A DNA stretch of 64,000 bases. Source: Conger conger (taxonomy: Eukaryota). Shown here piece after piece: positions 17,602 to 64,000 of this stretch. The notes under the pieces are model-generated. The model saw nothing but the letters and a program-made list of their open reading frames with translations, searched no databases and was not told where the DNA came from. The position numbers and the translations under genes are program-made. Location: the NCBI RefSeq assembly GCF_963514075.1, contig NC_083776.1:18886415-18950414 (forward strand), given 5' to 3'. How positions within the stretch are numbered: position 1 is the stretch's first letter; every line of letters starts with the position of its first letter.

Positions 17602-17726
17602 TCAGTATCTGCGACGTTTGTTGTTGGGACCCTCAAAGTTGGCCCCGCCTTGGTTGCCTCTCCCAAAACCCCCGGGCCCAGCACCGCCCACCCCCACAGG
17701 GACTGCCCCCACCATGGGCGGTGGCG

Positions 17727-17761
<35 letters not shown>

Positions 17762-17862
17762 GGTGGCTGCTGCTGTTGTGGTGGCTGCTGCTGCTGTTGT
17801 TGCTGGGCCTCCATTCCCGGTCGGCCGCCCATGGGTGTACCCAAAGGGGGAGGGCCGCCACT
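17602..17862 (-). CDS. pspc1: pspc1 last coding exon (SGGPPPLGTPMGGRPGMEAQQQQQQQPPQQQQPPQQQQQQQQQQQPPPPMVGAVPVGVGGAGPGGFGRGNQGGANFEGPNNKRRRY*), including a polyQ/polyP tract.
   Basis: Anchored to ORF 17602..17844(-). Acceptor gatagatttccccag| (minus strand). The C-terminus GGFGRGNQGGANFEGPNNKRRRY matches PSPC1 ...GGFGRGSQGGNFEGPNKRRRY. Confidence 0.8.
17690..17820 (-). repeat. pspc1: Coding trinucleotide repeat, (CAG/CAA)n with CCN interruptions on the minus strand and (CTG)n on the plus strand, giving polyQ-polyP.
   Basis: Direct reading of ctgctgctgttgctgctg... The ORF track reports 80, 94, 115 and 181 aa artefact ORFs in all frames over this stretch. Confidence 0.9.
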
Positions 17863-18939
17863 CTGGGGAAATCTATCATTGCGCTACAGGGCCGTGTTTT
17901 AAGCAGCACATTCACAGTCCAGTCCAATGATCGATGGTCGGTCAGAAAAGAATGTTTGTGTTGGGATTGTTTTTGTTTTTGTTTTTTTAATACAGACACC
18001 AGCACAGGTAGGTCCGAACGACGGCGTTGGGAAGAATCGAGGGCAGAGGAGATCCAAGGAGTGGCAGGATCAAACGGTGGAGAAGGAAGAAAGGAGTGGT
18101 TTTATTAGAGATCCGTAGCAACGCTCAGCCCTCCCCACATTCACTGACGCCTCATACCCACGAGAACTTCCTAACTGAAACACGTATTCACCTATGGTAC
18201 CTCCCCTTAATGAAATACAACCCAGTTGTATTCCATTGTCCCTGAAGGAACAGATAACTCTGGTTATACTAAATATTCCGTGTAAAATAAAATATTGAAA
18301 TGTCCTCCATTACCATAAAAAATGTGGACCTTGACAACAATCACTTCTTCATGGACCACAATATTGTAAAAATACTTCCATAACTAGCCCAATCAAGCAT
18401 TTCTGGCATAAAGCAAGGTCCTTGGACCTGTGTTCTTATGGCTGTGTATTTCAGTACATCGGAGGATTTGGTTTTCGTACATGTGGGTATGTACGTCAAT
18501 ATTTTGACTTCAGCCGTTTCTGATTACACATGTATATTTCAATCAGGAATAGTACAGTTATAAGAAAGATTTCAGTATTGAGTCTTGAATGAATTGCCTT
18601 CTGATTGAATTGAGTCTGTTATTGGCGTTTGTCAACATGAGGACCAAAGTTGTGCCAATGACATTCAAGGATGGAATTATGATTGAAAAGTTAGAGACAT
18701 AGGCCAAACAATAGGCATACCAAAATATGCTCTTTGAAAGATAACTATGAAGAGAATACGGGTGAGCTTGTAGGCCAAGGAAGACCTCTATAGCAATGAC
18801 TAAAGAATTCTCACCATAATGAAGAAAACCCTCCCCAAACATCTGTCCAACAAATCAGAAACAGGCAGGTGCGAATGTGACTACTGTCTGCAGAAGACGA
18901 GACAAACAGAAATGCAGAGGCTACACTGCAAGATGCAAA

Positions 18940-19140
18940 GCTCAAGTAAACTGCAGAGTGATGGCAAGGGGAAAGTGTGTAGGTCAAAAGGAACTGTCCA
19001 AAATCCAAAGCACCCCGTAATCTGTGAAACGTGGTTGTGGGGGTGTACTAGTTTGGGGATGTATGGCTGCCACAGCTACTGGCTCACATGAACTAATTGA
19101 TAATGTACCTGCTGATAGCAGTAGCAGAATTAATTCAGAA
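18940..19140 (+). mobile_element. Fragment of a Tc1/mariner-type transposase, related to the remnant at 44150-44620.
   Basis: ORF 18819..19091 (...KGTVQNPKHPVICETWLWGC...) parallels GGEKKQPKIQSIPPYL/VKLCGC in the 44.2 kb copy. Confidence 0.4.
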
Positions 19141-19689
19141 GAATACAGAAGCATCTTATCTGCTCACACACAATGAAATGCCTCCACACGCATTGGAGGA
19201 TGCTTCATCTAACAGCAGTGCAATGATCAGAAACATACAACCAGTACTCTCTTATTTTTGTTACAAACAGTTTGTTTCAGTTCTTTTTTGGCCTATGTCT
19301 CTGACTGTTTTTTCCAAGTTTCTCAGTCTCATAATTGCTTTTTTATTTGCAGTGTATGGAGGGGGAAGTAGAGATCATAGTCAAATTAGTGGTAGTTCCT
19401 TCTCCTGCTACATTATCTGTCTAGTGTCCTGACATACGCATTGTCCTTGTGCTACGGCAACCAAAACAGAGAAAGGCGATTAGAAAAGTGTTTTTATGAA
19501 AGCTTTGATAAGCAGCGGAGATATGTGATCTGGCCTCCCTGCAGTAAAGTGCACGAGGGTCATGAGTCTGGGCAGCAGTGGCTTCGTGGGCGAGTGTATT
19601 GGAGGTGTGCACGAGACGAAGGAAGGGCAATTCCTGGGTCCCAAACGGCACATTAATCAAGAGCAGCGATTGGCCCCACAATACAGGCT

Positions 19690-19850
19690 GAGCATAGACT
19701 GGGCTGGGAGTCGTGTGCGCATGTGCGTGCGTGTGTGAGCATGTGTGTGCGTGTGCGTGCGCGAGCGTGTGCGAGCGTGTGCGTGCATGTGTGCGTGTGT
19801 GAGCGTGTGTGAGCGTGTGAGCATGTGTGAGCATGTGTGTGCGTGTGTGT
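19690..19850. repeat. (GTGTGCGT/GTGAGC)n compound microsatellite.
   Basis: Direct reading. Confidence 0.9.
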
Positions 19851-21769
19851 TTACATGGGGGGGATGTAGGGGTATCTTCCAGGATTTAATTTCACTCATG
19901 GGAAAATATTCTCCCCTTGGAAATGTTGCTTTGGCAACCGTGAGGCAGCAGATCCCATAAAGGCAGTTTGATGAACAGTGGTAGGCCCTACGGACCAGAT
20001 CACACCTGGCCCAATAAATGTGCGTTACCCACCCCCAGCATTTTTCTGTGTAATGGCCATATTGGAGGACCCAAAGTCCTACTTTCCAGTATTCGTTTCC
20101 CAACGTGATGAAACGGAGTGCCCCTTATTCTTGCACTATAATATAAATGCAGGAATGTTACTTTGCAATGATATTTTAAAATGGTTGTATTGGAGGTTAT
20201 GAATCTTGCAAAGCCAGACTTCAACATCCACATTTTTTCCACAGACATACTGACATATTAATACTTGATAATAATCTACAATGTCTTCCAGTGTGCTATA
20301 ATTAGAGCGATCATGGCCAGATAATCTAATTCATGTTTTTTTTGTACAAGGGCAGGCTTTACCATCCATGCAAACGACCAACCCTCATCAGATTTAACAA
20401 TAATAACAAAACCATAATGTTTTAGAGATAATCTTCATACAATTTAAAGGAGTAACATGGTGGTTGAATGTGACACTTGCCAGTTGTCTTTAGGCATAAA
20501 CAAGCATATTTGTTTATATTATTCAGTCATTTAAATGCATTTTCAAATACTTATTTTTCTAAGCCTAAATTTCCCATCATAAAAGTTCACCCAAACTTTC
20601 TGGGCATGGTAATGAGAACTGTCAATTAGCTATCCACACATTGTTGTTTGTTACCATAGCTACCTCCATCAAGCACTCATCTTGGGCGAATTTTCACAAG
20701 CTAGAACGCAAACTAGCTAGCTAGCTAAATTAATATAACCAGAAATAGTCTAATAGTCCTTATAGGGGAGGGATAAGGGGAGTGGTTATCATTGTGTGAC
20801 GCAATACCAGGAGAGTATTCTCAACCGGTTGAAAATAGAACGATACATTTAAAAGGCTTACTTCTCCAAAACTAAAGGATGGACATATTTAATACTTTTA
20901 TCATGCTTTTTCAATGCCTCCTTGTGCAAATTGCATATAAAAACATAGAAAGTGTGATCAACCACCATGTTACCCCTTTAATATTACTTCACTACTGACA
21001 GGAAATGCCATAACATGAGATCATGCTGACATTATAGCCATCTATTTAGAGATTATGAAGCAAGTACGATTTCAAATAGGCTTGACAGTTCATGAATTAT
21101 ATTTTGTTGTGTAAACTTGCAAACCTTAACCAAGCGAATAAGTAGATCTAAGGTTGGTCCCTTGAGGTGAAGATCCTCCAGATATTGTTGTGTGTTTCAA
21201 ATATTTCAGAACAACATCAGGAACCAAATCACACCCTCAAGATAAGTTGTGGATGCACAAAAACCCTTTTTTTATTTCTATTATAATTTTTTTAACCTAG
21301 CTCCTTGGACAAAACTCCTGATAAGAGTCCAGCAGATCAGCACCTAACGGATAGTTTTATAGCACTACATATTCATGAAGGCATAACATCCTTTTAACCC
21401 TTCAAGGTGTAAGATCACAAATATGCAATGAGAATGTTCTCAACTGCTGATGTCAATATCACTACTGCTAATTGAGAGCAGGTTCTAGAACACTAACCGA
21501 ATAAAAAAATAAAAATAAAAATGAGCAAACCTAATCTTCAAAAGGTTTAATCGGTCACTGAATAATTCACTATTTTTACCCAGCAAACAATTTGGAAAAC
21601 ATACGTCAGAAACATATCGCATTATTAATCATTCCATTTTTTATGTTAGGTTAAAGTGGATCCAGATAAATACAAACCAGACACTGTACTTTCATGCAAA
21701 AAAGTCTTATGTCCAAAGCATGAGGGGTAAAGGGAAGAGGGGAATGAGAGGGCTAGGTGAATACGTTAC

Positions 21770-21877
21770 CATGGCTCCGTTATCCGGCATCATTGGGGTC
21801 CCCATGCCAGCCGCTCCCTCTGGGCCCATGGCTCCGCCGCGGCCAGGCAGACCCAGGCCCCTCATTTGTGGGGGCCC
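21770..21877 (-). CDS. pspc1: pspc1 exon 7 ([36 protein letters not shown]).
   Basis: Anchored to ORF 21707..21976(-). Acceptor ...aaccag| and donor GCCATG|gtaacg. 108 nt, phase 0 to 0. Matches PSPC1 ...[23 protein letters not shown]. Confidence 0.7.
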
Positions 21878-24371
21878 CTGGTTACCGCCAGCAGCAGCTG
21901 GGTTATACGCATCTACGCAAAACAACGTGGTGGTTTGCTTTCTTACGCGTAGCCCAAGTGAGAACAAGTAGAACATCTGAAAGAGGCTGTGTGAAGCTCC
22001 TGTCCGTCAAATTATTATGAGTATTTTTCTTTTTTTTCTTTTTACTTTTTGATTGAAACAAACTGGACTTGGTCAGATCATATTTGGGACTGCACGATAC
22101 CGAGGTGCGCAGATTAAAAACATTCCAACAAACACAACTGCAGCAGGCCTATCCCCCATATGCCACAACTGCCCCTTTTCCAAAAACATATGCACTTAAT
22201 CCCACCCCGGATGCTGGATCGCAGAACAGCGCACTGCAAAGGCACGACCCTGTAGAAAGGCCCAGACATCGGGACACTCTCCTTTGATGAGTCCAGGCTC
22301 ATGTCGTTCCATCAACAGGCTATTTAGCATACATTACACACTCATTCTTCACTACTTTGCCATTCAAGACCAACCCACAAACATTCACTAAATAATATTA
22401 ATATCATGGGAGGTATGAAGTTTCCCAGTTTTCAACGTGCCCATGACGTTGGACAATATTATGCAAGTTTTACAGTAAAATAATGCACAAAGGAAAATGT
22501 CTCGCAGGTGAGTCAGGTGTGCTGCACAGTAATAATTACTTTGTTTTACGACTTGACGCTGATGGTAGAAAGATGAGGTATATGCAAGACAACTGGAACA
22601 TACCAATATCTCAAAGACAGCCAACACTAACATTGCTTTTACAAACAGGCAAAATGTTTTACACTTCCTAGCATGGAAACACAAGGTACCATAGCCACAT
22701 GGCAGAATACATGCGATCATTCAAATGGTGTGTCCCTTCATTTTATCTGATCTAAGAAATCAAACATACTTTTTTTGTTCCATGATCCCGGAATAGTAAA
22801 AGGTTTTATTTTATAAATAATATTCTTTCTTCTCCAGTTCTGGTAAAACAAAATAGTGTGGGAAGTGTTACACACTCAAAGTCATTACATGTGGAGTAAC
22901 AAGTTGTAGCAGATTCGATACAAGTTACCCCAGGAAAATATCCCTGACCAAATGACTGTACATTCCGAAGAACTGGTTTAGTTACACTACACCTTTGTTT
23001 TCTTTCAAATACTGCCATAAATCTCTCATATCAGTCATGAAATTTGTACTCATTTTTAGCCAGAGAGGAAACTTCTACAAAATACAGGTGAATCATGAAC
23101 CTGGGCTACTGAATATCACGTAGAAGATTCTCAATATATAGAATTATATATTGTGTTTCAACACAGCATGGAAGTATAAACAATGTCTTCGAATATATGC
23201 ATCTAACATCCACAACACTGTGATGCTTATGAGTGTACTTTTTTTAAAAATAAAAGTGTAGGTTATATATTGGGCAAATGCTGACAGAAATAGTTAAATG
23301 TAGTACTATCGTGAAGAAAATGATTAATTATCTACACCAGGGTTGAGTGAATGCATACAGCAGTCACCATGCACAGTTAAGGCTACAGCTGCAACATAAA
23401 AATCCATAATTAATTGTTGAGAATTCTAAATCCATTTTATATACATTGATAGACAAAAGGGTTACCTACACGCCATTATCAGAATACAGCAATCACACAC
23501 TCCAGACACACACCAGAATTTAGTTTTTGAACTATTCAGAACTGTTGATGTTTTCAATCATTTCAACAGATCGCACTTGAAAGCTACTGTACATACAGTA
23601 CAGCATCCCAGGAAATAAGACACTTATGGACATATCCCCGATGAACAAGGAGCAGCAAAATATTGCACAGCAAACCTTTCAAACAACTTGCGTGATGTAT
23701 GATGTTCATGTGAATTTTATCATATACAACATACAGTGTTTTGGACAGTGCATTGAGGAGCAGGCTTTTTCAGAATGAGCACCAGGTTCCAATTTAACAA
23801 AGTAAAAAGATTAAAGCAAGTATAAAATATTTCACTCTACAAAGAAGCAATTCAACATGCAGTCACAGATGATATAGAAATATTATATATCATATATAAC
23901 AGAAATATTTCTGTTTTTGAAACAAAGAATGTAACCCATGAGTAGCATAGACAGACAGACTGAGGAAGGTGATGAGGAAACCACAGATAGCTGGAGCAGA
24001 ACGAATATATCGGTCGACACTTCAGATTCCCGCAAAAGGCCCACACATTGTTTCTTACATTACAGGAGGTTGGGGTACAGTACAAATCCCAGCACACACC
24101 TGCAAGTAACGTGCAGTCCCAAACACATGTGAATGGATGTCCCAGGAGCCCCACACAGCTGATTGACAGTCCACGGCGTCATTATGACCCTACCTCCCAT
24201 ATTTATGCCTCCACGTGGACCCATATCACCCATTCTCATATCCTGCTCTCTCTGGAAGTGAAAAGAATTTTGGACGGGTCAACTAAATCGGTATATTAGG
24301 GGAATAATGATAACAAGAAGAACTGAGCACAGTATATTTTAGGCACTCCGAATCCAAGGACACCCTGAGCA

Positions 24372-49221: not shown

Positions 49222-49232
49222 CAAGATGGCGT
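49222..49232. promoter_or_regulatory. YY1-like motif CCAAGATGGCG (core AAGATGGCG / CGCCATCTT) about 130 bp 5' of the pspc1 ATG.
   Basis: Direct reading. Motif knowledge only, with no functional evidence. Confidence 0.3.
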
Positions 49233-50479: not shown

Positions 50480-50660
50480 GCATTTACCTGTGGCCAACAA
50501 TTTTAACAGCGATATAATTATACAACACAGTGCGCCTGCGTGAAAGGCGAGAAAGGGAAAAGATCTTCGAACGTTGCTACGTTGTAGCGCATGCGCTAGG
50601 GTATTTGTGTCAAGGCACAGAAGTGGCGCTATATCGTTTGCAGATCGACTCGGGTAAGCA
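50480..50660. promoter_or_regulatory. Putative pspc1/zmym2 bidirectional promoter core. It is a local CpG cluster containing a perfect NRF1 palindrome GCGCATGCGC (about 50589-50598). A plus-strand donor CGACTCGG|gtaagc near 50655 marks a candidate zmym2 non-coding exon 1. A minus-strand donor (plus strand catttacctg = CAG|gtaaatg) near 50488 marks a candidate pspc1 5'-UTR exon.
   Basis: Direct reading of gtgcgcctgcgtgaaaggcgag...ctacgttgtagcgcatgcgctagggtatttg...cgtttgcagatcgactcgggtaagc. This is the only CpG-dense patch between the two divergent ATGs (49092 and 53692). Confidence 0.4.
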
Positions 50661-53600: not shown

Positions 53601-53691
53601 AGAAGCAGCATGTATGCATGTCTCTCTGCCGTGGCCTTTGATTGACGACGCTGTTGGCCTGTGTACATGTCACCAGGTGGTTGTCTAAGTG

Positions 53692-54487: not shown

Positions 54488-55027
54488 GTAATGGTCATAG
54501 ACACACACACACATACACACACACACGTATGTACAGACAAGCAACTGTATGCACACGCACACATACTCCATGTATGTCTTTGATTGATGCAGACCTCCAA
54601 GTTGACCTGCATCTGGGCTCAAAGGCTGATCGACATTGAGTCATGAATCGACCACGTTTCTTCCTATAATAGATCAGTTTCGTACTCATGGATTTGCCGA
54701 AGTCACAAATCCTTTCCACCCCACTAATGGACGTCATATTGACCTGATTGATTAGACGTCAAAACAACGTGAAAATGTTTGATGGTGAGAGAAAAAGAGT
54801 TTGCAGTGTTGTTAACATCCTCCATGTATCTCCTTGAACGGTGGGCTGAATATTAATTTTGTAATATTTATTCATATTTAATATTGCTGGGCTTATGATT
54901 GCCATTCTTAATATGAAGAAAATAAAAACAAAAAGAATACATTTTTCATAAAGAATGTTGAAAGAGAGTTTCATTGAAAGGGTTGAAGTGCTGGTCTGTG
55001 TTTTAAGGGTTGAGTTTTTCCGCACAG

Positions 55028-55313
55028 ATTTGTGGATATCCCAGTCGGCTACTTTCCCGAGGAACCAGAAGCAGCCCGGCGTGGACTCCCCGGCACCGGC
55101 CGCCTCGCTGCCCAAGCAGGTGCCCTCACCCTCGGGCTCCCAGCAGGCCCCCAGGACGGTCAAGGTCACCTGCGCCAACTGCCGCAAGCCCCTGAAGAAA
55201 GGACAGACGGCCTACCAGCGCAAAGGCTCCGCCCACCTCTTCTGCTCCACCACCTGCCTCTCCGCCTTCTCCCACAAGCCCGCCCCCAAGAAGAACTGCA
55301 CCATGTGCAAGAA
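55028..55313 (+). CDS. zmym2: zmym2 coding exon 2 ([96 protein letters not shown]), MYM zinc finger 1.
   Basis: Anchored to ORF 54955..55317. Acceptor ttttccgcacag| and donor AAGAA|gtaagg. Matches human [20 protein letters not shown]...[51 protein letters not shown]. Confidence 0.9.
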
Positions 55314-55392
55314 GTAAGGGCTCAGCCTGTCAAGCACAGCCTGGTAGTAGAGCCGGTTGGTTATATGAGACCTTGCTCCTGAACGTGTCTGA

Positions 55393-55552
55393 AGCCTGAT
55401 TTATACTTCTGTGTCGGAGCTACGCAGAGGCTATGGCGTAGCCTACACATAGCCGCGTTCCCTACCCCGTAGGCTACGCAGAGGCAACGACATGTAGTTC
55501 CATTTCTGGGGAGGTGCATGTCAGGCTATATCAAGTATAAATCAGGCTTTAC
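55393..55552. mobile_element. Small MITE-like element with 16-20 bp terminal inverted repeats (GCCTGATTTATACTTC ... GAAGTATAAATCAGGC-like) and an internal direct repeat GCTACGCAGAGGC. It lies in zmym2 intron 2.
   Basis: Direct reading of gaagcctgatttatacttctgtg...gctatatcaagtataaatcaggctt. Confidence 0.45.
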
Positions 55553-56545
55553 GATGAGGCATTCGCCTAAGATGTGGGGAATGACAGCAGGGCTCCATTG
55601 TAAATGTGTGAAGCGGGGGAGGAGGGAGGAGAGGGAGGTGTGTTCCCAGTTGCCTGTCCTTAAAAGCAGGGTTCTTTGTTACTGATTGTTTCCCCCCTGG
55701 GAGAGGGAACAGGTGGCTGAAGCCATCCCATAGTTACACAAATGAGTCAGATGGCTTGATGACGGATCTAGTGAGGAGGCGGGAAGCAAGGTCTTAATGA
55801 TGTAATTAGCCCTAACACTTATACTACCTGAGTTTTTGGCTACAGTTCTTCAGAAGCACACGTTTGGTAGCTGAAGACTGTTCCTGTGTCTCTATATGAA
55901 ACCTTGCGCTGTGATCTAATTTTCCAGTGAGCCAGTGTTGGTGTACATTAGCTAATTAGCTCATTTAGCAAAGGTAATTGGTGGAAACAGAAACCTGTAC
56001 ACACACTGGCCCTCCAGGACCAGGAATTCCCACCCCTGGTTTCATACAATGAAAAGCAGAGAGGGATGCCATCTGCACCCTTTCTTTCCCACAGACCTGG
56101 AACAGTGTTATGGTAAAGGCCCTTTATGAAGGAGACCCTTTACAGTACAGTTACCGTCGGCTTAGTCAGTCTTTGCTTAGCACTTGCTTAGTCAAATCGG
56201 TCGGATATACTTTCAGATTTTTTTTGCCATAGAGTCCAAAATATTTATGTTGAAAATGTTGCTCAAGGAAGGAGGGAGCGCTAAAGTTACATGACCAGTC
56301 AGTCAGCAACCCTGTCTTTGAAGTCTCAGGAGCTGAATGTGGATTATTTAAGATGCTTCTGGTGATGGAATACGTTTGTGTATAAAGTGTTCTGTGTGGT
56401 CTTTGCTGTGCTTGGAATAAGTTGCTTTTTAAAATTGTTCTTGAATCACGTGGAGGCGCATGGTGCTGATAGGTATTTTTTGTGTATTGTGTGTGGTGAA
56501 TTGAGGGTGGCATGCACTGACTGCTGTGTGTTGTGTTTTTCTCAG

Positions 56546-56708
56546 AGATATCACCAGTATGAAAGGAACAATAGTTGCCCAGGTGGACTCAAGCGAGTCC
56601 TTCCAGGAGTTCTGCAGCACTGGCTGTCTTTCGTCGTACGAGAACAAACAGAACCCGCCCAAGACCCCTGTGAAGACCAGGTGTACGGTCTGCGGGAAAC
56701 TGACTGAA
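56546..56708 (+). CDS. zmym2: zmym2 coding exon 3 (KDITSMKGTIVAQVDSSESFQEFCSTGCLSSYENKQNPPKTPVKTRCTVCGKLTE).
   Basis: Anchored to ORF 56526..56792. Acceptor tgtttttctcag| and donor ACTGAA|gtaagc. Matches human DITTMKGTIVAQVDSSESFQEFCSTSCLSLYEDKQNP...RCTICGKLTE. Confidence 0.9.
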
Positions 56709-56818
56709 GTAAGCCAGCCGACAGCTGAAGTGGATGACCACACGTGGGAAATGCTCTCGGTGTTGACACTTGTGTGTGCCGGTTTATTTTAATAAAAATG
56801 TCCCCCTCTTTCCTTAAG

Positions 56819-57025
56819 ATTCGCCACGAAGTCAGCTTTAAGAACGTCACCCACAAGATCTGCAGCGACATGTGTTTCAACCGCTACCGTATGGCGAACG
56901 GGCTGATCATGAACTGCTGCGAGCATTGTGGGGGCTACCTGCCCACCAAGGCCAACCACTTCCTTGTCATCGATGGCCAGCAGAAACGCTTCTGCTCTCA
57001 CAACTGCGTCAAGGACTACAAGCAG
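56819..57025 (+). CDS. zmym2: zmym2 coding exon 4 ([69 protein letters not shown]).
   Basis: Anchored to ORF 56744..57127. Acceptor ctctttccttaag| and donor TACAAGCAG|gtcagg. 207 nt. Matches human [44 protein letters not shown]...[21 protein letters not shown]. Confidence 0.9.
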
Positions 57026-58025
57026 GTCAGGGCGGCAGGAATCCTACCATCTCACATTATTATCCCCATTGGGTTTCCTGGTTTAACTGTGAGCAGAAGC
57101 ATACAGAAGTCCTGGATGAAGTGGTGAACGTGCCAATGGCATACCGATTAAACATTTTTGTATTCTCATCATAAATTTATCTTACTTTTTTGAACGAAGG
57201 GCTCATACGAGTGTGCGACGTCGGATTCAGTGAACGCACTTAACTTCAGACAACTGTCCTGAATGAAGATTTTCATTATGATACAGTATATACGGTACTG
57301 TACGTAGATTCTGTCATATAGATGGCCAAACGATTAACAAGAACAAGGGACTACTGATACCTGATTCGGTAGACTGTGGTTCCTTTGGTTTTTGGAAAAA
57401 CCTAATCATATGGCAGACTGTTGATCAGCTGTCTTTTTTCTCCTAAACAGTCCACTAAAATATGTTTCTGGAAACATTTTAGGTGAGAAATCCTGATTCA
57501 TATTTGATCTGCAAGGCCTAGTTTGAAAGTTTGATTGGAGTTTGGTGTGCCAGGCGAGCTGTGCTGACATGCACTGCAAGGCTCTTGGTTACATGAGTTG
57601 TACGACAGGTCGGGACCACTCGTAAATGTTGTTCCTACGTAAGAAAATATTCTAAATGACAGAAAATGATTGAATGTGCCAAGTTCTCTTAAATCACTTG
57701 TTTATGAAAGTTTTAAGTGATTTAAGAACTAATGTGTTGTTCTTGCATGAGGCCTGGCGTGTATCGTTTTTGTTTACTTCTCTGACTTTTACGCGGAGGG
57801 TGAGGGTAGTAATGCAGTACAATTGGCAGGGAACTGAGTTTGTAACCTAAAGGTTGCAGGTTCCATTCCCAGGTAGGACACTGCTGTTGAGCACAGTGCA
57901 TAACCTGAATTGCTGCAGTAAAATAAAAAAAAGGAAACCCTCTGGATAAGCGCATTAGCTAAACGCCTGTAATGTAATGGTGATGTTCCCTTGCATGTGA
58001 TTTTTACTTGTATTTCATTTCTCAG

Positions 58026-58194
58026 GCACACGGGAAGATGACGATCTGCAGCGGGTGTAAGACTTCGTGCCGCGCTCTCACAGGCACGCACTGCATCGGG
58101 GCAAATGGCACCATGGAAACGTTCTGCTCCGCCATCTGCATGGCCAAGACCAAGGGCTCCACCACCACCGTCAGCACCACCACCACCACCACCA
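58026..58194 (+). CDS. zmym2: zmym2 coding exon 5 (AHGKMTICSGCKTSCRALTGTHCIGANGTMETFCSAICMAKTKGSTTTVSTTTTTT-).
   Basis: Anchored to ORF 58008..58241. Acceptor tttcatttctcag| and donor ACCA|gtgagtctcc. The phase (+1) is needed to join exon 6 in the MYM frame. Matches human KLTTCTGCRTQCRFFDMTQCIGPNGYMEPYCSTACMNSHKTK. Confidence 0.8.
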
Positions 58195-58345
58195 GTGAGT
58201 CTCCCTCTCCCACACTGTATGGCCTACTGCAGTCACTGTAGAGTGAGTCCCACTCTCCCACACTGTATGGCCTACTGCAGTCACTGTAGAGTGAGTCCCA
58301 CTCTCCCACACTGTATGGCCTACTGCAGTCACTGTAGAGTGAGTG
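58190..58345 (+). repeat. Tandem array, 3 x 48 bp plus a partial unit, beginning exactly at the exon-5 donor. Each unit begins AGTGAGTC(C/T)C and so reiterates the a|gtgagt donor consensus. A further partial copy lies about 270 bp downstream at 58598-58640.
   Basis: Direct reading of agtgagtctccctctcccacactgtatggcctactgcagtcactgtag repeated. ORF-track entries 58105..58362(+) and 58022..58393(-) show periodic peptides. Confidence 0.9.
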
Positions 58346-58666
58346 GAAAGTCCCCCAGATGAACTTCACAACAGGGGTCGTGAAGGGGTGCACAACAATG
58401 GCTGATCAGTTTCTGCATTTTGTGCCAACTTCTGGTCTCAATTATTTAATTGACTCAATCATATCTCATCTGACATGTGCATGAGTGTATCTGAAAGATT
58501 TTACTGTGCTCAAGTACAGGCTTGAACCAGAGTAATTAATAGAGCTGTCAGCAAATGAAAAACAAGGCAATTGGTTGGAACAAAAACCAGTACGCAGACC
58601 GGTAGAGTGAGTGAAAAGTCCCTCAGATGAACTTTACAAGCTGTATCTGTAGCAGTTTTCATGTTT

Positions 58667-58842
58667 AACCCTTTCAGTCCAAAGGCCAATCTGAAGTGGC
58701 TCCACCCAAGTTTTAATAGGTGCTCAAAACAATAGTATAGCAGTCATTTTGATTGGTTGAAAAGGTATAGATTGTAAACTCTTGGAATTTTACAGTAGTA
58801 ACACTTGAGTGCCATATGGCCCTCCCGGAACTGAAAGGGTTC
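58667..58842. mobile_element. Second full-length copy of the CCCTTTCAGTCC MITE (termini AACCCTTTCAGTCCAAAGG ... GGAACTGAAAGGGTT), in zmym2 intron 5.
   Basis: Inverted termini are read directly. Internal AGTGCCATATGGC palindrome is shared with the 8213-8388 copy. Confidence 0.6.
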
Positions 58843-59130
58843 ATACTTTTTGCTGTTGGATGTTTCCCATGGAAGCACTCAATCTGGATTCGCTTTCGAG
58901 TGAAACAGCTTGTACATGTTCACACAGACATTTATGTTTTTAAACAAAAAAACGAACAAACAGAAACTGCTCTATTGATTTATACCGACATTGAACTGAC
59001 TGGTGGATGCCTCAGGATCATACTGCAGGAATTTGGGTCCAACAGCTAGAAGGATTTCTCTGGGATGTTATGTGTGTGTCTGTGTTATCAAAAACCTTCT
59101 TTAAGCCCCCCCTCATTTGTCTGTCCTCAG

Positions 59131-59246
59131 CTACTGAACCCCGCTGTCATTTCTGTAAAGAGAAGGCCTTGCCGCAGTACCAGGCCACACTTCCAGAGGG
59201 GGTGGTGTATAACTACTGCAGCTCCACCTGCATGACTAAATTTCAG
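59131..59246 (+). CDS. zmym2: zmym2 coding exon 6 (-TEPRCHFCKEKALPQYQATLPEGVVYNYCSSTCMTKFQ).
   Basis: Anchored to ORF 59007..59408. Acceptor tgtctgtcctcag| and donor TTTCAG|gtacagg. 116 nt (2 + 38 codons). Matches human ICHFCKRNSLPQYQATMPDGKLYNFCNSSCVAKFQ. Confidence 0.85.
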
Positions 59247-59672
59247 GTACAGGAACTCTGTCCTGGTGGGCATGCTGGTGGTTTGGAATCATTAACCCTG
59301 TTTTTGCAATGTACTAAATGTTTCAAAATGCCAAGCCAGTGTTCTAGAACTCCATTGGTTTCAGTTACCAGGAGTGATTTTTACATCAGCATTAGCATGT
59401 TCAGTTAAGATGATTCTGATCACACATTTGTGATCTCACACCTAAAAGAGGTAATGGATTTATACCTCATCAAAAAGCACTAGTCCCTGTGACATTGAGT
59501 GATATTTCTTGGGAGGAAAAAAAAAAAAAAAAAAGGAAGAAATTGTCACAGATCTCTGCTTTCTTAGCCCAGTCGCCTACAAAAGATAAAGCGCTTGAGA
59601 TAATGCTGTTCTGTAAGAGCCTTATTTAAGACCCAGCTTGAGTTTAGGATTTCTTTTTCTTCTCCCGTTTAG

Positions 59673-59804
59673 GATTTTACTGCCCTTTCCGGGAAAAAGT
59701 CAAACGGTCAGACGGCACCTTCCTCCACAACCAACAACATTCAGCTCAAGTGCAATTACTGCAGAGGGGCCTTCAGTCTGAAGCCCCAGACCCTGGAGTG
59801 GGAG
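59673..59804 (+). CDS. zmym2: zmym2 coding exon 7 (DFTALSGKKSNGQTAPSSTTNNIQLKCNYCRGAFSLKPQTLEWE).
   Basis: Acceptor ctcccgtttag| and donor TGGGAG|gtgagc. 132 nt = 44 codons. Matches human SDIQLKCNYCKNSFCSKPEILEWE. Confidence 0.8.
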
Positions 59805-60213
59805 GTGAGCTCCAGCATGTGTGTGTCTGCTCTCACTTCATTCCAGTGCAGTTATTTAGCTGATGCTTTTAACCAGACTTAGAGTTGATTTGAGGAAGGT
59901 ATTCGGCAGTCCGGTATCCATACGACCGGTCTGAAATTTCACTCTCTTCCCCCCCAGAATACAGAAGAGCGTTTGTTAATCAGTGACATTTCTTCACAGT
60001 TGACAATTTAGGAACTAACACAGACTTTCATTACTAATCGAGAACCAGGTTCATTTGAGCATTCCCACTGGTTTAAGTGGTTCGCTCCATTTTATTTGAT
60101 GGCCCCCCTCAGTTTTGACCGGTCTCCTCGGTGACCGTGTCTCTCCTGCGGTCAGGAGTGTAAATGGGAGTGAAGATCAGCGATATTTAAACAGGACTTT
60201 CTCATTCCTCCAG

Positions 60214-60364
60214 AACAAAGTCTACCAGTTCTGTAGCAAGCCCTGCTGCGACGACTATAAGAAGTTGCACTGCATAGTTACGTTCTGCGAGTACTGTCAG
60301 GAGGAGAAGACTCTTCACGAAACCGTCAAGTTCTCAGGGGTGAAGAAGCCCTTCTGCAGTGAGG
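60214..60364 (+). CDS. zmym2: zmym2 coding exon 8 (NKVYQFCSKPCCDDYKKLHCIVTFCEYCQEEKTLHETVKFSGVKKPFCSEG-).
   Basis: Anchored to ORF 60115..60444. Acceptor ttcctccag| and donor GAGG|gtgagatg. 151 nt. Matches human NKVHQFCSKTCSDDYKKLHCIVTYCEYCQEEKTLHETVNFSGVKRPFCSEG. Confidence 0.9.
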
Positions 60365-60799
60365 GTGAGATGCTTGTCCTTCTCCCTGCACTTCTCCTTT
60401 CTACATTTCCCTTTTCATTCCGTCCCTCAGGTGTGAACACGTGAAGCTTGTTAATCACTCCGAATAAGTAAATAATGTATTGATACGGTTAGGTGTTATG
60501 TACTGGTCGTTCCTGTTACTGTACTGAATTTGCGTACTCTCTGCAATAAATGACTAACTGATTAATGAAATGTGTCCACTAGATGGAGTGCTTGCACAAG
60601 AGTCGTCGCTTGTGAGCTGAAAGTCTGGAAAGCTGTCGTTTTACTGTCAAATCTTTTTTTTCCCTAAAAAGTGGGGATCTCATAGTTCTCACTTCTGCGT
60701 TATTGAACCAGTTGATTATTTATTGATTGATTATTGACTGATTGCGGCTGATTAATTAATTGATATTTTTTGTCCTCCTTCCCTCCTCATCACCCCCAG

Positions 60800-60972
60800 G
60801 ATGCAAACTGCTGTACAAGCAGGAATTTGCCAAGCGACTGGGGCTGAAGTGTGTCACATGCAACCATTGCACCCAGATGTGCAAGAGAGGCGTGACCAAG
60901 CAGATCGACGGAGTACAGCGGGACTTCTGCAGCGAGCCCTGCGCCAATAAGTTCAATGACTGGTACTACAAG
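60800..60972 (+). CDS. zmym2: zmym2 coding exon 9 (-CKLLYKQEFAKRLGLKCVTCNHCTQMCKRGVTKQIDGVQRDFCSEPCANKFNDWYYK).
   Basis: Anchored to ORF 60760..61098. Acceptor cacccccag| and donor TACAAG|gtgagtctc. 173 nt. Matches human CKLLYKQDFARRLGLRCVTCNYCSQLCKKGATKELDGVVRDFCSEDCCKKFQDWYYK. Confidence 0.9.
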
Positions 60973-61047
60973 GTGAGTCTCAGAAACGCTTATGGCTCTC
61001 TGTTCAATGACTGGTACTACCAGGTGAGACTCAGAAACACTCCTGGT
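60951..61047 (+). repeat. Tandem duplication (period 51 bp) of the exon-9 3' end plus its splice donor: TTCAATGACTGGTACTACAAG|gtgagtctcagaaac ... TTCAATGACTGGTACTACCAG|gtgagactcagaaac.
   Basis: Direct reading. The exon-9 ORF reads through the first gtgagt in frame to the second donor (KVSLRNAYGSLFNDWYYQ). Confidence 0.9.
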
Positions 61048-61097
61048 TTTGTACAAAATGGCCGTAGTGCAACTTCTCCTGCTCTGTTCCTTAGCTA

Positions 61098-61365
61098 ATG
61101 TGTGTGTGTGTGTGTGTGTGTGTGTGTTCATGTGCATATGTGTGTGTGTGCACGTGTGTGTGTGCGCGTATTTGTGTATATTTTTGTGTGTATGTGTGTA
61201 TGTGTATGTGTTCATGTGCATATGGGTGTGTGTGTTTGCGCACGTGTCTGTGTGTACGTATTTGTGTGTATTTTTGTGTGTGTGCGTGCGCGTGTGTGTG
61301 TATTTTGTGTGTGTGTGTGTGTATTTGTGTTTGTGTGTGTGTGCGCGCGCGTGCCTGTATCTGCT
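61098..61365. repeat. GT/GC-rich compound microsatellite ((GT)n, (GTGTGC)n) of ~270 bp in zmym2 intron 9, ending a few bases from the exon-10 acceptor.
   Basis: Direct reading. ORF-track entries 61049..61411, 61098..61385 and 61102.. are CV-rich translation artefacts. Confidence 0.9.
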
Positions 61366-61371
61366 CTCCAG

Positions 61372-61537
61372 GCGGCGCGCTGTGACTGCTGTAAGCTGCA
61401 GGGGAATCTGAGCGAGTCGGTGCAATGGAGGGCTGAGATGAAGCACTTCTGCGACCAGCAGTGTCTCCTCCGCTTCTACTGTCAGCAGAACGAGCCCAAC
61501 CTGGCCACGCAGAAAGGGCCCGAAAACATGTCCTACG
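61372..61537 (+). CDS. zmym2: zmym2 coding exon 10 (AARCDCCKLQGNLSESVQWRAEMKHFCDQQCLLRFYCQQNEPNLATQKGPENMSYG-).
   Basis: Anchored to ORF 61102..62163. Acceptor tctgctctccag| and donor TCCTACG|gtacgtc. 166 nt. Matches human AARCDCCKSQGTLKERVQWRGEMKHFCDQHCLLRFYCQQNEPNMTTQKGPENLHY. Confidence 0.85.
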
Positions 61538-62065
61538 GTACGTCTCACACACCAGTGTGTCTCTGCCCAGAGAACATGTCACACGGTACATCTCACACGT
61601 CTGTGTGTCTCTGGGTCCAGAGAACATGTCATACGGTGCGTCTCACACACCTGTGTGTCCCTGCCCAGAGAACATGTCACACGGTACATCTCACACGTCT
61701 GTGTCTGTCTCTGCCCAGAGAACATGTCATACGTTACATCTCACACACCAGTGTGTCTCTGCCCAGAGAACATGTCACACGGTACATCTCACACGTCTAT
61801 GTCTGTCTCTACCCAGAGAACATGTCACACGGTACATCTCACACGTCTGTGTCTGTCTCTACCCAGAGAACATGTCATACGTTACATCTCACACACCAGT
61901 GTGTCTCTGCCCAGAGAACATGTCATACAGTACGTCTCAAACGTCTGTGTGTCTCTGCCCAGAGAACATGTCATACGGTACGTCTCACACGTCTGTGTGT
62001 CTCTGCCCAGAGAACATGTCATACGGTACATCTCACACGTCTGTGTGTCTCTGCCCAGAGAACAT
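61520..62065 (+). repeat. Minisatellite of ~11 units of 48-50 bp (cagAGAACATGTCMYACGgtacRtctcacacRYCWGTGTGTCTCTGCC). It starts inside the last 17 nt of exon 10, so every unit repeats the exon end plus the G|gtac donor and is preceded by cccag.
   Basis: Direct reading. Because the period is a multiple of 3, the ORF track shows long open frames across the array in three frames (61102..62163, 61461..62180, 61655..62125). Confidence 0.9.
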
Positions 62066-62480
62066 GTCCAAAATCTCCCATGGCATTTTATATGGGGGCG
62101 TGTGCCACTTGCTTTGTATTTATAAGGAATGCAATATGCACGGCTATGTGGTTTCCACAATAGCGCCAGTTAGCTACTGATACGTCTTCCTGTTGCATTT
62201 TTGTATTGAATAAAAATGGATACTTGACTCCTGGACAAGGCTGTCTGCTATCTTGGCAAACACTAGTTCAGTTTTATCAGCCCCCACCATAGTCTGTCAT
62301 TTTTAAAGTAGCACTTTTGTCAGTTTAGGTGTATTTTATAGGTATATTGACTAATTGCCATCACAGTCAGATTACAATTTGATAGTGGCATCTTAACATT
62401 TGAAGAGGGTGGACCCCATACCATCGTTTATATCATTACTATGATTTACTCCCATTTCAAACCCTGTTCTCCTTTTTCAG

Positions 62481-62515
62481 GGCCTGGAGGACAGCCACAG
62501 GGAACCAAGGCAACG
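62481..62515 (+). CDS. zmym2: zmym2 coding exon 11, a 35 nt small exon (-PGGQPQGTKAT).
   Basis: Acceptor ttctcctttttcag| and donor GCAACG|gtaagtg. Phase (+2 in, 0 out) links exon 10 to exon 12. There is no direct homology memory. Confidence 0.55.
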
Positions 62516-62519
62516 GTAA

Positions 62520-63270
62520 GTGATAAGGGCTCTGCTCTCCTTCAGGGAGGTGTTACGATGTCTCTGGAGTTATAATATCTCTGGAGTTATAATCTCTCTG
62601 TGGGATTGTAATATGACCACTGTGGGATTATAATCTCTCTGTGGGGTTACAATCTCTCTGTAGGTTTATATAATGTCTCTGTGGGGATATAATCTCTCTG
62701 TAGGGTTATAATCTCTCTGTGGGGTTATAATATAGCCTATTTATGGGTTTACAATCTGGCCTCTCTGTGGATTTATAATCTTGCGTCTCTGTGGGATTGT
62801 AATATGACCACTGTGGGATTATAATTTCTCTGTAGGGTTATAATCTCTCTGCGGAGTTATAATCTCTGTGGGATCATAATCTCTCTGTAGGGTCATATAA
62901 TCTCTCTGTGGCATTATAATCTCTCTGTAGGGTTATTTAATCTCTCTGTAGGGTTATTCTCTCTGTAGGGTTATATAATGTCTCTGAGGGGTTATAATCT
63001 TTCTGTAGGGTTGTATAATGTCTCTGTGGCGTTATCATCGCTCTGTGGTCTTATAATCACTCTGTGGGGTTATAATCTCTCTGTGGCGTTATAATCGCAA
63101 TGTGGGGTTATAATCTCTCTGTGGGATTATAATCTCTCTGTGGGGTTATAATCTGACCTCTCTGTGGGGCTATAATCTCTGTGGGGTGGGGTTATAATCG
63201 CTCTGTGGGGTTATAATCTGACCTCTCTGTGGGGTGGGGTTATAATCTCTCTGTTCACTGGGATGGGTTT
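62520..63270. repeat. Minisatellite of a ~20 bp unit (GGGTTATAATCTCTCTGTGG and variants), ~35 copies, filling zmym2 intron 11.
   Basis: Direct reading. Confidence 0.95.
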
Positions 63271-63282
63271 CTCTCCCTGCAG

Positions 63283-63427
63283 GTGTATAATCAGACCTCT
63301 GTGCCTGCCTTCGCTGGGGGAGGAATGCTGAAGGACGTTAAAAACAAGGCTGTGCTCTGCAAGCCCCTCACGCTGACCAAGGCTACCTACTGCAAACCCC
63401 ACATGCAGAGCAAGCACTGCCAAACAG
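63283..63427 (+). CDS. zmym2: zmym2 coding exon 12 (VYNQTSVPAFAGGGMLKDVKNKAVLCKPLTLTKATYCKPHMQSKHCQT-).
   Basis: Anchored to ORF 63229..63543. Acceptor ctctccctgcag| and donor AAACAG|gtacaaatg. 145 nt. Matches human EMKNKAVLCKPLTMTKATYCKPHMQTKSCQT. Confidence 0.9.
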
Positions 63428-63439
63428 GTACAAATGCAC

Positions 63440-63600
63440 ACACACTGCCAGAGAGATGCACACAATGTCAAACAGGTATGGATACACACACACACACACA
63501 CACATACAGGCATGGACACACACACTGCCAGACAGACAGGTAAAGACAGGTACACATACATACTCACACTCACCCTATGACAGACAGGTACAGCATATGT
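63440..63600. repeat. (CA)n / CAGA-rich microsatellite in zmym2 intron 12.
   Basis: Direct reading. Confidence 0.9.
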
Positions 63601-63776
63601 ATAGGCCTGCTGACATATGGGTAAACGTTGTACAAACGTGGTTTGGAGATCTGTTAATTTGCCTTCCTTCTTAAGGATTTTTGCCCTCATATCTATGGCC
63701 CTGAATGTTGCGCCACACTGGTGCCCTGAATACGCCGTCCCTGTCTTGACCTCTGACCCCGTCTATGTGCTTCTAG

Positions 63777-63892
63777 AGGAAGAGGTGCAAAAGGAGTACA
63801 TCCCGGTCCCGGTCCCTGTCCCCGTCTTCATCCCTGTGCCAATGAACATGTACGCACAGGCCACGCCAACACCTGTCACCCTACCTGTCCCG
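63777..63892 (+). CDS. zmym2: zmym2 coding exon 13 (-EEEVQKEYIPVPVPVPVFIPVPMNMYAQATPTPVTLPVP), the Pro/Val-rich region. The gene continues beyond the window.
   Basis: Acceptor tgcttctag| and donor GTCCCG|gtaagaat. 116 nt, phases consistent. Resembles the human ZMYM2 P/V-rich segment (...IVPVPVPIPVFVPVPMHMYSQ...). Confidence 0.75.
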
Positions 63893-64000
63893 GTAAGAAT
63901 GCCCGTCTTTCAGTCATACACAACGGCCAGACCACATACTGTATATCACTCTACCTGCTTAAAAGTAAATCACTTTTCATTAAAAATGGGTAGGAGATGC

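What the first reader, a model, noticed from the sequence alone, without database searches (positions are those of the whole stretch)
17602..64000. Head-to-head pspc1/zmym2 pair recapitulates a DBHS-ZMYM linkage that exists for all three vertebrate paralogue pairs
The sequence shows a complete PSPC1-type DBHS gene (minus strand) and a ZMYM2-type MYM zinc-finger gene (plus strand) diverging from a shared region of about 1.4-4.6 kb at 49092-53692.

From established knowledge of human gene order, PSPC1 and ZMYM2 lie at 13q12.11, NONO and ZMYM3 are adjacent at Xq13.1, and SFPQ and ZMYM4 are adjacent at 1p34.3.

So each of the three DBHS paralogues sits next to a ZMYM paralogue. This implies a linkage that predates the vertebrate genome duplications and is kept in this fish.

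The human intervening gene ZMYM5 is absent here, and the MPHOSPH8-like ankyrin gene sits tail-to-tail with pspc1 as in human.

Such persistent head-to-head linkage suggests shared bidirectional regulation, or a functional coupling, between paraspeckle/DBHS proteins and MYM-type zinc-finger corepressor components.
Basis: partly seen in the sequence, partly recalled or inferred. Interest (0 to 1): 0.55.

Follow-up and report, generated by a model that had tools for sequence, protein, structure and literature searches.

The report
Ancient pspc1–zmym2 divergent gene pair
This eel-like fish window holds mphosph8, pspc1 and zmym2 in the same order as human 13q12.11, and the back-to-back pspc1/zmym2 pair is one copy of a very old neighbour pair that two papers from 2011 and 2012 already describe.

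Summary

- **pspc1:** a complete 9-exon gene on the minus strand (49092→17602, 546 aa).
- **zmym2:** the 5′ part of the gene on the plus strand, from the ATG at 53692 to the window edge. The two ATGs are 4,599 bp apart.
- **mphosph8:** its 3′ end (plus strand, about 959–4100) faces pspc1 tail-to-tail.
- **ZMYM5:** nothing like it is present.

The ancient-linkage idea also holds. In a starfish and an acorn worm, the single DBHS gene lies head-to-head with the single WOC/ZMYM gene, with gaps of 4.1 kb and 0.5 kb. A teleost sfpq gene has a ZMYM4-type gene 5 kb downstream.

Two caveats apply:
- Orientation is not always kept. Teleost sfpq→zmym4 is tandem, with a small gene between them.
- No ZMYM neighbour lies within 10 kb of the DBHS gene in a tunicate, bivalve, nemertean, scorpion, horseshoe crab or sea anemone.

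The idea is not new. Kojima & Jurka 2011 drew the three DBHS–ZMYM synteny blocks, noted that ZMYM5 is eutherian-only, and proposed co-evolution. Irimia et al. 2012 listed ZMYM3–NONO as a conserved ancestral microsyntenic pair that is strongly co-expressed in human (r = 0.83).

Verdict: real, correctly read, already known, low interest.

The parts
959..4100 (+). 3' part of mphosph8 (ankyrin repeats plus C-terminal domain). Exons at about 959-1045, 1509-1646, 1872-1958, 2476-2631, 3108-3266, 3625-3753 and 4010-~4100.
   Evidence: Matches PDB 8qfb_B (M-phase phosphoprotein 8) at E = 3.3e-132, aligned over chain residues 46-326. Pfam Ank_2 hit.
6721..6852 (-). Candidate alternative terminal exon of pspc1, encoding VFPGMMRTMERLPVLLQTSGEDPDISF...*, preceded by a ...cttcag acceptor.
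   Evidence: tblastn match to the isoform-specific tail of Anguilla pspc1-like isoform X3 (P0001 aa 387-416). The ORF appears. No Pfam domain. Its use as an exon is inferred, not shown.
17602..17883 (-). pspc1 exon 9, the last exon, including the stop codon. It carries a Q/P-rich insertion and ends GFGRGNQGGANFEGPNNKRRRY*.
21770..21912 (-). pspc1 exon 8
   Evidence: AG/GT boundaries
24194..24251 (-). pspc1 exon 7
35257..35362 (-). pspc1 exon 6 (coiled-coil end)
36725..36809 (-). pspc1 exon 5 (coiled coil)
38931..39127 (-). pspc1 exon 4 (second half of NOPS plus coiled coil)
   Evidence: Pfam NOPS hit
39711..39806 (-). pspc1 exon 3 (first half of NOPS)
42805..43106 (-). pspc1 exon 2 (end of RRM1 plus RRM2)
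   Evidence: Pfam RRM_1 at 1.7e-18
48721..49092 (-). pspc1 exon 1 (ATG at 49092; start of RRM1)
   Evidence: Pfam RRM_1 at 2.2e-11
49093..53691 (.). Divergent spacer between the pspc1 ATG and the zmym2 ATG (4,599 bp). It must contain both promoters and any non-coding zmym2 5' exon.
   Evidence: CpG o/e is 0.70 here against 0.47 for the whole window. No ORF carries a domain above threshold (one hit at E = 0.027, far below Pfam's cut-off), and there is no MYM motif and no Rfam family.
48250..50050 (.). CpG-rich block 1, over pspc1 exon 1 and its upstream flank. Probable pspc1 promoter or CpG island.
   Evidence: CpG o/e is mostly 0.8-1.2 in 300-bp windows. Promoter function is inferred.
50350..52000 (.). 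CpG-rich block 2 (peak o/e 1.54 at 50500-50800). Candidate zmym2 promoter or non-coding first exon, about 1.26 kb from the pspc1 ATG.
   Evidence: It is followed by a CpG-depleted stretch (52000-53350) and a possible acceptor (tcaccAG) about 15 nt before the zmym2 ATG. This is inference only.
53692..63910 (+). zmym2 5' part, about 710 aa with at least 8 MYM fingers. Coding exons at about 53692-54477, 55021-55317, 56544-56705, 56816-57022, 58026-58150, 59127-59246, 59703-59804, 60214-60366, 60799-60972, 61375-61530, 63283-63426 and 63760-63910. The gene continues beyond the window.
   Evidence: Pfam zf-FCS hits. MYM motif scan. tblastn with Megalops and Albula Zmym2. The named top hits are ZMYM2. 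Exon ends marked '~' are approximate.

Best explanation
The window is the orthologue, in an elopomorph (probably eel-like) teleost, of human 13q12.11. Its layout is mphosph8 (+), then pspc1 (-), then zmym2 (+). The divergently transcribed pspc1/zmym2 pair is one of three copies of a single ancestral divergent pair. That pair consisted of a DBHS RNA-binding-protein gene and a WOC/ZMYM zinc-finger gene, and the three copies arose in the two vertebrate genome duplications.

The ancestral pair already existed, head-to-head, in the common ancestor of vertebrates and ambulacrarians (shown here). The most likely reason it survives is shared or interleaved cis-regulation in the short CpG-rich spacer. 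Breakpoints there would be harmful, and the two genes would be co-expressed. This step is inferred and rests on published human co-expression of ZMYM3-NONO.

ZMYM5 is missing because it is a eutherian-specific duplicate. All of this is already in the literature.
For: - **Gene identities.** Supported.
- **Lineage.** Eel-type UnaL2 LINE elements and 92.7% identity to Anguilla Pspc1-like place the window in or near the eels.
- **Outgroups.** In Asterias rubens, a 1900-aa gene with zf-FCS, QRICH1 and DUF3504 lies on the strand opposite the DBHS gene, 4.1 kb upstream, and Pfam confirms a MYM finger there. In Saccoglossus, a 1784-aa gene with zf-FCS and DUF3504 lies 0.54 kb upstream on the opposite strand.
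- **Second vertebrate pair.** Turbot sfpq has a ZMYM gene 5 kb downstream.
- **Related species.** Albula Pspc1 and Zmym2 carry locus tags 025525 and 025527 on one 118-kb contig.
- **Literature.** Kojima & Jurka 2011 give the synteny blocks, the ohnology and the eutherian-only ZMYM5. Irimia et al. 2012 list ZMYM3-NONO as a CAMP with r = 0.83, rank 100; most CAMPs are 5'-5'.
- **Spacer.** CpG o/e is 0.70 against 0.47 for the window, in two island-like blocks.
Against: - **Orientation is not invariant.** Teleost sfpq and zmym4 are co-directional, with a 271-289-aa gene between them.
- **Missing in other invertebrates.** No ZMYM gene lies within 10 kb of the DBHS gene in Clavelina, Mactra, Tubulanus, Centruroides, Limulus or Nematostella. 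The 10-kb flank limit makes these weak negatives.
- **No transcript data.** There are no TSS or expression data for this species, so a truly shared promoter is unproven.
- **Human spacing.** The three human pairs are tens of kb apart, and ZMYM5 sits between PSPC1 and ZMYM2. This comes from my own knowledge plus the CNV coordinates. A classical promoter under 1 kb is therefore not required for linkage to persist.
Confidence: 0.8

Rival explanations
1. The linkage is a neutral relic. The two genes are still neighbours only because the spacer is short and few rearrangement breakpoints have fallen in it. There is no selection for co-regulation or joint function.
For: - The pair is broken or not close in six of eight invertebrates examined.
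- Orientation changed in teleost sfpq/zmym4 without loss of either gene.
- A new gene, ZMYM5, was tolerated between PSPC1 and ZMYM2 in eutherians.
Against: - The pair is retained in three separate vertebrate ohnologue copies and in two ambulacrarian phyla, over more than 500 My.
- Irimia et al. found 0.015 conserved pairs on average after randomising gene order, a false discovery rate below 0.0002.
- ZMYM3-NONO co-expression ranks 100 against matched neighbouring-gene controls.
Confidence: 0.25
2. The linkage is kept because the proteins work together, through co-evolution or dosage balance of DBHS and ZMYM proteins in HDAC-dependent repression, splicing or DNA repair. Shared promoter elements as such are not the reason.
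For: - Kojima & Jurka proposed this, citing ZNF198/ZMYM2 binding to PSF/SFPQ and both families recruiting HDAC1.
- Pspc1 recruits Tet2 and Hdac1/2 to MERVL, and Zmym2 represses MERVL (review PMC10794949).
Against: - A physical interaction does not by itself need chromosomal adjacency in animals.
- Many invertebrates have both genes unlinked at close range.
- No paralogue-specific pairing (PSPC1 with ZMYM2, and so on) has been shown.
Confidence: 0.15
3. The adjacency arose independently in vertebrates and in ambulacrarians, by convergence.
For: None directly. It is allowed only by the lack of amphioxus, lamprey or protostome positives in my own look-ups.
Against: - The same two single-copy families, in the same divergent orientation, appear in two ambulacrarian phyla and in vertebrates.
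- Chance adjacency of two given genes among roughly 20,000 is about 1e-4 per genome.
- Irimia et al. report the pair in at least 4 major lineages.
Confidence: 0.02

Closest known systems
Human 13q12.11 segment MPHOSPH8-PSPC1-ZMYM5-ZMYM2
   Same: The three orthologues are in the same order. mphosph8 and pspc1 are convergent, and pspc1 and zmym2 are transcribed away from each other. Order is supported by the CNV coordinates in PMC11629504. The human strand orientations come from my own knowledge.
   Different: There is no ZMYM5 here; it is a eutherian-only duplicate. The fish spacer is 4.6 kb from ATG to ATG, against well over 100 kb in human with ZMYM5 inside it.
ZMYM3-NONO conserved ancestral microsyntenic pair (CAMP; Irimia et al. 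2012, Genome Res 22:2356)
   Same: It is the ohnologous copy of the same ancestral DBHS-ZMYM pair. It is reported as conserved in at least 4 major metazoan lineages and is among the most co-expressed human neighbours (r = 0.83).
   Different: It is a different paralogue pair. That paper does not name PSPC1-ZMYM2 or SFPQ-ZMYM4 in its main text. Its supplement listing the species was not available.
ZMYM2/3/4 synteny blocks containing PSPC1/NONO/SFPQ (Kojima & Jurka 2011, Mob DNA 2:12, Fig. 7B)
   Same: The authors also speculate that the two families act together and co-evolved.
   Different: The paper gives no orientation and no outgroup linkage for WOC. Here, head-to-head WOC/ZMYM-DBHS pairs were seen in a starfish and an acorn worm, and a tandem arrangement was seen for teleost sfpq-zmym4.
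Classical bidirectional-promoter pairs such as HSPE1-HSPD1
   Same: They share the divergent 5'-5' orientation, deep conservation and a CpG-rich spacer. The Saccoglossus gap (0.54 kb) falls in the bidirectional-promoter range of under 1 kb.
   Different: In this window the spacer is up to 4.6 kb and the TSSs are unknown. The human copies are tens of kb apart. Orientation was lost in teleost sfpq-zmym4.

Membership tests
DBHS family, PSPC1 orthologue | Tandem RRM1-RRM2 followed by a NOPS domain and a coiled coil | tested here: met
   Pfam finds RRM_1 in exons 1 and 2 and NOPS in exon 4. The alignment to PSPC1/NONO/SFPQ crystal constructs is continuous over residues 63-320.
DBHS family, PSPC1 orthologue | Closer to PSPC1 than to NONO or SFPQ | tested here: met
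   All 120 best hits are named PSPC1. The score is 507 bits against human PSPC1 and 427 bits against NONO and SFPQ over the same 258 aa. Identity is 85-93% to elopomorph Pspc1, against 59% to Sfpq and 66% to Nono-like.
DBHS family, PSPC1 orthologue | Complete ORF with canonical splice sites | tested here: met
   Nine exons, all with AG acceptors and GT donors, 1641 nt in frame, stop at 17602.
ZMYM2 (MYM-type zinc-finger protein with a Crypton-derived DUF3504 domain) | Array of MYM-type (zf-FCS) zinc fingers | tested here: met
   zf-FCS hits above the Pfam cut-off in eight ORFs. Five strict C-x2-C...[FY]CS-x2-C motifs lie on the plus strand.
ZMYM2 (MYM-type zinc-finger protein with a Crypton-derived DUF3504 domain) | Orthology to ZMYM2 rather than ZMYM3 or ZMYM4 | tested here: met
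   Every top-120 hit that carries a gene name is ZMYM2, E <= 1e-197, apart from one alligator entry labelled ZMYM5.
ZMYM2 (MYM-type zinc-finger protein with a Crypton-derived DUF3504 domain) | C-terminal DUF3504 / QRICH1-type domain | not testable with these tools
   The gene runs off the window at 64000, after about 710 of about 1,200 residues. Most orthologous hits carry PF12012 and PF25561.
MPHOSPH8 (MPP8, HUSH subunit) | Ankyrin-repeat block plus the conserved C-terminal domain | tested here: met
   E = 3.3e-132 to PDB 8qfb_B, aligned over chain residues 46-326. Generic ankyrin proteins score far lower.
MPHOSPH8 (MPP8, HUSH subunit) | N-terminal chromodomain | not testable with these tools
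   The 5' part of the gene lies outside the window, to the left of position 1.
Conserved ancestral microsyntenic pair (CAMP, Irimia et al. 2012) | The two unrelated genes are linked, with at most 4 intervening genes, in at least 4 major metazoan lineages | tested here: inconclusive
   My look-ups show linkage in three lineages: vertebrates (window; turbot), an echinoderm and a hemichordate. Six other taxa were negative within +/-10 kb, which is a narrower test than '4 intervening genes'. The paper itself lists ZMYM3-NONO as a CAMP.
Bidirectional-promoter gene pair | Divergent (5'-5') orientation | tested here: met
   pspc1 is on the minus strand starting at 49092 and zmym2 on the plus strand starting at 53692. 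The same orientation occurs in Asterias and Saccoglossus.
Bidirectional-promoter gene pair | TSS-to-TSS distance below about 1 kb and shared promoter activity | not testable with these tools
   There are no transcript or CAGE data. The ATG-to-ATG distance is 4.6 kb. The CpG-rich blocks suggest two promoters about 1.3 kb apart. Only the Saccoglossus annotated gap (0.54 kb) meets the distance criterion.

The most novel reading that the evidence does not exclude
After the two vertebrate genome duplications, three ohnologue copies of an ancestral divergent DBHS-WOC/ZMYM pair survive, each still linked as a pair. On this reading, that is because the two genes depend on one shared CpG-island control region and must be produced in step for a joint role in HDAC-dependent silencing, for example of retroelements: Pspc1 works with Tet2/Hdac1/2 at MERVL, and Zmym2 with its corepressor partners. 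The HUSH subunit gene mphosph8 is a third, conserved neighbour at the PSPC1 copy. This would make the locus a small, ancient 'silencing neighbourhood' rather than a plain microsyntenic relic.
Probability: 0.12. Interest if true: 0.45.

Novelty: already known. Interest (0 to 1): 0.18.

Why it matters
The locus is a clean textbook case of three things: a pre-vertebrate divergent gene pair, its survival in triplicate through genome duplication, and what can happen to it later (compaction in a fish, insertion of ZMYM5 in eutherians, inversion at teleost sfpq/zmym4).

The pair could serve as a test bed for whether shared cis-regulation really holds ancient neighbours together. The central claims are published: Kojima & Jurka 2011 and Irimia et al. 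2012. The finding therefore adds confirmation in one more species rather than new biology.

The small additions made here are:
- direct sequence-level evidence for the head-to-head arrangement in a starfish and an acorn worm;
- the tandem exception in teleost sfpq-zmym4.

Tried and rejected
1. **Lamprey and starfish short isoforms.** Neighbour look-ups for lamprey P0131 and Asterias isoform X2 failed because only the longest isoform per gene is indexed. Lamprey therefore stayed untested.
2. **Amphioxus.** No Branchiostoma DBHS protein appeared among the 120 best hits of a search seeded with the Saccoglossus protein. None was among the 30 representatives I could name. Amphioxus is untested here.
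3. **tblastn into outgroup flanks.** Fish Zmym2 against the starfish and acorn-worm flanks gave nothing. Only the divergent, acidic N-terminal exons lie within 10 kb. A Pfam scan of a starfish ORF did confirm a MYM finger.
4. **A hidden gene or RNA in the spacer.** Considered and rejected: no ORF carries a credible Pfam domain, and there is no MYM motif and no Rfam family.
5. **Turbot P0122 as nono.** Considered and rejected. It is a 5'-truncated sfpq model in the same genomic context as mudskipper sfpq. NONO-ZMYM3 adjacency therefore rests on the literature only.
6. **Promoter scan.** The sigma-70 promoter/terminator scan was not used, because it does not apply to a vertebrate.

Full report
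**What is in the window**

The window is vertebrate (teleost-type) DNA, with microsatellites, a Tc1/mariner transposase ORF and scattered exon-sized ORFs. On the minus strand there are nine coding exons with canonical AG/GT boundaries: 49092-48721, 43106-42805, 39806-39711, 39127-38931, 36809-36725, 35362-35257, 24251-24194, 21912-21770 and 17883-17602. They assemble into a 546-aa ORF. It has RRM_1 twice and NOPS.

All 120 best hits among 5.8 billion proteins are annotated PSPC1. Against solved structures, the same 258-residue core scores 507 bits to human PSPC1 and 427 bits to NONO and SFPQ. The protein is 92.7% identical to an Anguilla 'pspc1-like' protein over 386 aa and 85% identical to Megalops Pspc1. 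Two UnaL2 (eel LINE) 3' elements sit in intron 1. The source is therefore an elopomorph, probably eel-like.

**The plus-strand gene and the left-hand gene**

On the plus strand an ORF opens at the ATG at 53692, with an in-frame TAA directly upstream. At least 12 exons follow, carrying MYM-type zf-FCS fingers. Every best hit that carries a gene name is ZMYM2, apart from one alligator entry labelled ZMYM5. The gene is cut by the window end, so its DUF3504 domain is not visible.

At the left edge, seven plus-strand exons (about 959-4100) match human M-phase phosphoprotein 8 (PDB 8qfb_B) at E = 3e-132. pspc1 and zmym2 are head-to-head, with 4,599 bp between their ATGs.

**The spacer**

The region 49093-53691 contains no ORF with a credible protein domain, no MYM motif and no Rfam family. 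Nothing ZMYM5-like is present. Its CpG observed/expected ratio is 0.70, against 0.47 for the whole window. The CpG enrichment falls in two island-like blocks:
- 48250-50050, over pspc1 exon 1;
- 50350-52000, with a peak of 1.54.

A CpG-poor stretch follows, up to the zmym2 ATG exon. This fits two closely spaced promoters, with a non-coding zmym2 first exon about 1.3 kb from pspc1. That is inference only, because no transcript data exist here.

**Is the linkage older than the vertebrate duplications?**

I identified single-copy DBHS genes in outgroups and read their genomic neighbours within 10-kb flanks.

| Taxon | Neighbour of the DBHS gene |
|---|---|
| Starfish, Asterias rubens | A 1900-aa gene with zf-FCS, QRICH1 and DUF3504 (the WOC/ZMYM architecture), 4.1 kb upstream on the opposite strand; Pfam confirms a MYM finger in the DNA |
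| Hemichordate, Saccoglossus | A 1784-aa gene with zf-FCS and DUF3504, 0.54 kb upstream on the opposite strand |
| Tunicate, Clavelina | No ZMYM neighbour within 10 kb |
| Bivalve, Mactra | No ZMYM neighbour within 10 kb |
| Nemertean, Tubulanus | No ZMYM neighbour within 10 kb |
| Scorpion, Centruroides | No ZMYM neighbour within 10 kb |
| Horseshoe crab, Limulus | No ZMYM neighbour within 10 kb |
| Sea anemone, Nematostella | No ZMYM neighbour within 10 kb |

A six-frame motif scan found no unannotated MYM fingers in those negative flanks for which sequence was returned; the scorpion and horseshoe-crab flanks were not in that scan. The divergent pair therefore predates vertebrates, reaching at least the ancestor of vertebrates and ambulacrarians. 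My negatives are weak, because the flanks are short and several of these genes are very long.

**The other vertebrate pairs**

A turbot DBHS model (P0122) turned out to be a 5'-truncated sfpq. A 1464-aa ZMYM gene with TRASH_ZMYM4, QRICH1 and DUF3504 starts 5 kb downstream of it. That gene is on the same strand, with a 289-aa gene between the two. Mudskipper sfpq has the same upstream and downstream context. The sfpq-zmym4 linkage is therefore kept in teleosts, but the head-to-head orientation is not.

NONO-ZMYM3 adjacency was not tested here and rests on the literature.

**Prior art**

Kojima & Jurka 2011 (PMC3212892) made the following points:
- ZMYM2/3/4 are 2R ohnologues derived from WOC.
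- Their synteny blocks share other genes.
- SFPQ, NONO and PSPC1 sit in the ZMYM4, ZMYM3 and ZMYM2 blocks respectively.
- ZMYM1/5/6 are eutherian-only.
- ZMYM2 binds SFPQ.
- They concluded that the two families 'cooperatively act... and have coevolved'.

Irimia et al. 2012 (PMC3514665) list ZMYM3-NONO among 595 conserved ancestral microsyntenic pairs. These are pairs linked in at least 4 major metazoan lineages, and 593 of them are inferred to have existed in the bilaterian ancestor. The paper cites ZMYM3-NONO as one of the most strongly co-expressed neighbour pairs in human (r = 0.83, rank 100), in its section on co-regulation and 5'-5' orientation. Published CNV coordinates confirm the human order MPHOSPH8-PSPC1...ZMYM5-ZMYM2.

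**Mechanism**

What is shown:
- the identities of the three genes;
- their geometry in the window;
- the CpG-rich spacer;
- the pre-vertebrate origin of the pair;
- a second vertebrate copy in a teleost.

What is inferred is that the pair persists because promoter and enhancer elements in the short spacer serve both genes, so that breakpoints there are selected against. I put this at roughly even odds.

The main rival is neutral persistence. It is supported by the many lineages where the pair is not close, by the teleost sfpq inversion, and by the tolerated ZMYM5 insertion. A protein-level coupling (both families recruit HDACs; ZMYM2 binds SFPQ; Pspc1 and Zmym2 both repress MERVL) is an interesting but unproven addition. 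Convergent origin is very unlikely.

**Verdict**

The finding is already known. It counts as a correct rediscovery, and its interest is low.

Noticed in passing
window 6721-6852 (-): This is a candidate alternative terminal exon of pspc1 (VFPGMMRTMERLPVLLQTSGEDPDISF...*), preceded by a cttcag acceptor. It matches the isoform-specific tail of Anguilla pspc1-like isoform X3. It lies 10.7 kb beyond the canonical stop and only about 2.5 kb from the last mphosph8 coding exon, so the two convergent transcription units may nearly touch.
   Followed up: partly
window 45309-45363 and 45882-45935 (-): Two UnaL2 LINE 3' elements (Rfam RF00436, both above the gathering score) lie in pspc1 intron 1. UnaL2 is an eel LINE, which points to an anguilliform or elopomorph source.
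   Followed up: no
window 40460-41218 (+): A Tc1/mariner (Sleeping-Beauty-like) transposase ORF (HTH_Tnp_Tc3_2 plus DDE_3) sits inside pspc1 intron 2, antisense to the gene.
   Followed up: no
window 37013-38900: A 30-bp minisatellite of about 64 copies (91% matches) fills most of pspc1 intron 4 and ends about 30 bp from exon 4. It creates many spurious ORFs in the ORF list.
   Followed up: no
window 61518-62068: A 48-bp minisatellite (about 11 copies) starts at the 3' end of a zmym2 exon (...QKGPENMS) and repeats that exon-end sequence into the intron.
   Followed up: no
window 17700-17800 (-), pspc1 last exon: A Q/P-rich insertion of about 26 residues (QQQQQQQPPQQQQPPQQQQQQQQQQQPPPP) is present, compared with sturgeon, Aldrovandia and other Pspc1 proteins. 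It lengthens the low-complexity C-terminal tail.
   Followed up: no
L006 10001-35869 (turbot); L007 (mudskipper): Teleost sfpq and zmym4 are co-directional: Abhydrolase_2 gene, then sfpq, then a 271-289-aa gene with no Pfam hit, then zmym4. They are not head-to-head, which implies an inversion relative to the pspc1/zmym2 and ambulacrarian arrangement.
   Followed up: partly
L008 2896-6728 (Nematostella); L004 29428-31450 (Clavelina): A MIX23 (PF09774) gene adjoins the DBHS gene in both a sea anemone (head-to-head) and a tunicate (tail-to-tail). This may be another old linkage, or it may be coincidence.
   Followed up: no
proteins P0001 and P0454 (Anguilla): Eels carry two 'pspc1-like' genes on different chromosomes, 92.7% and 73.9% identical to the window protein. 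They are probably teleost-duplication copies. Whether the second copy also keeps a zmym2 neighbour is unknown.
   Followed up: no
L004 10001-29292 (Clavelina): The tunicate DBHS gene model (816 aa) appears fused to an archaemetzincin (Peptidase_M54) gene. A cluster member from another annotation is named Archaemetzincin-2, so this is probably an annotation merge of two neighbouring genes.
   Followed up: no
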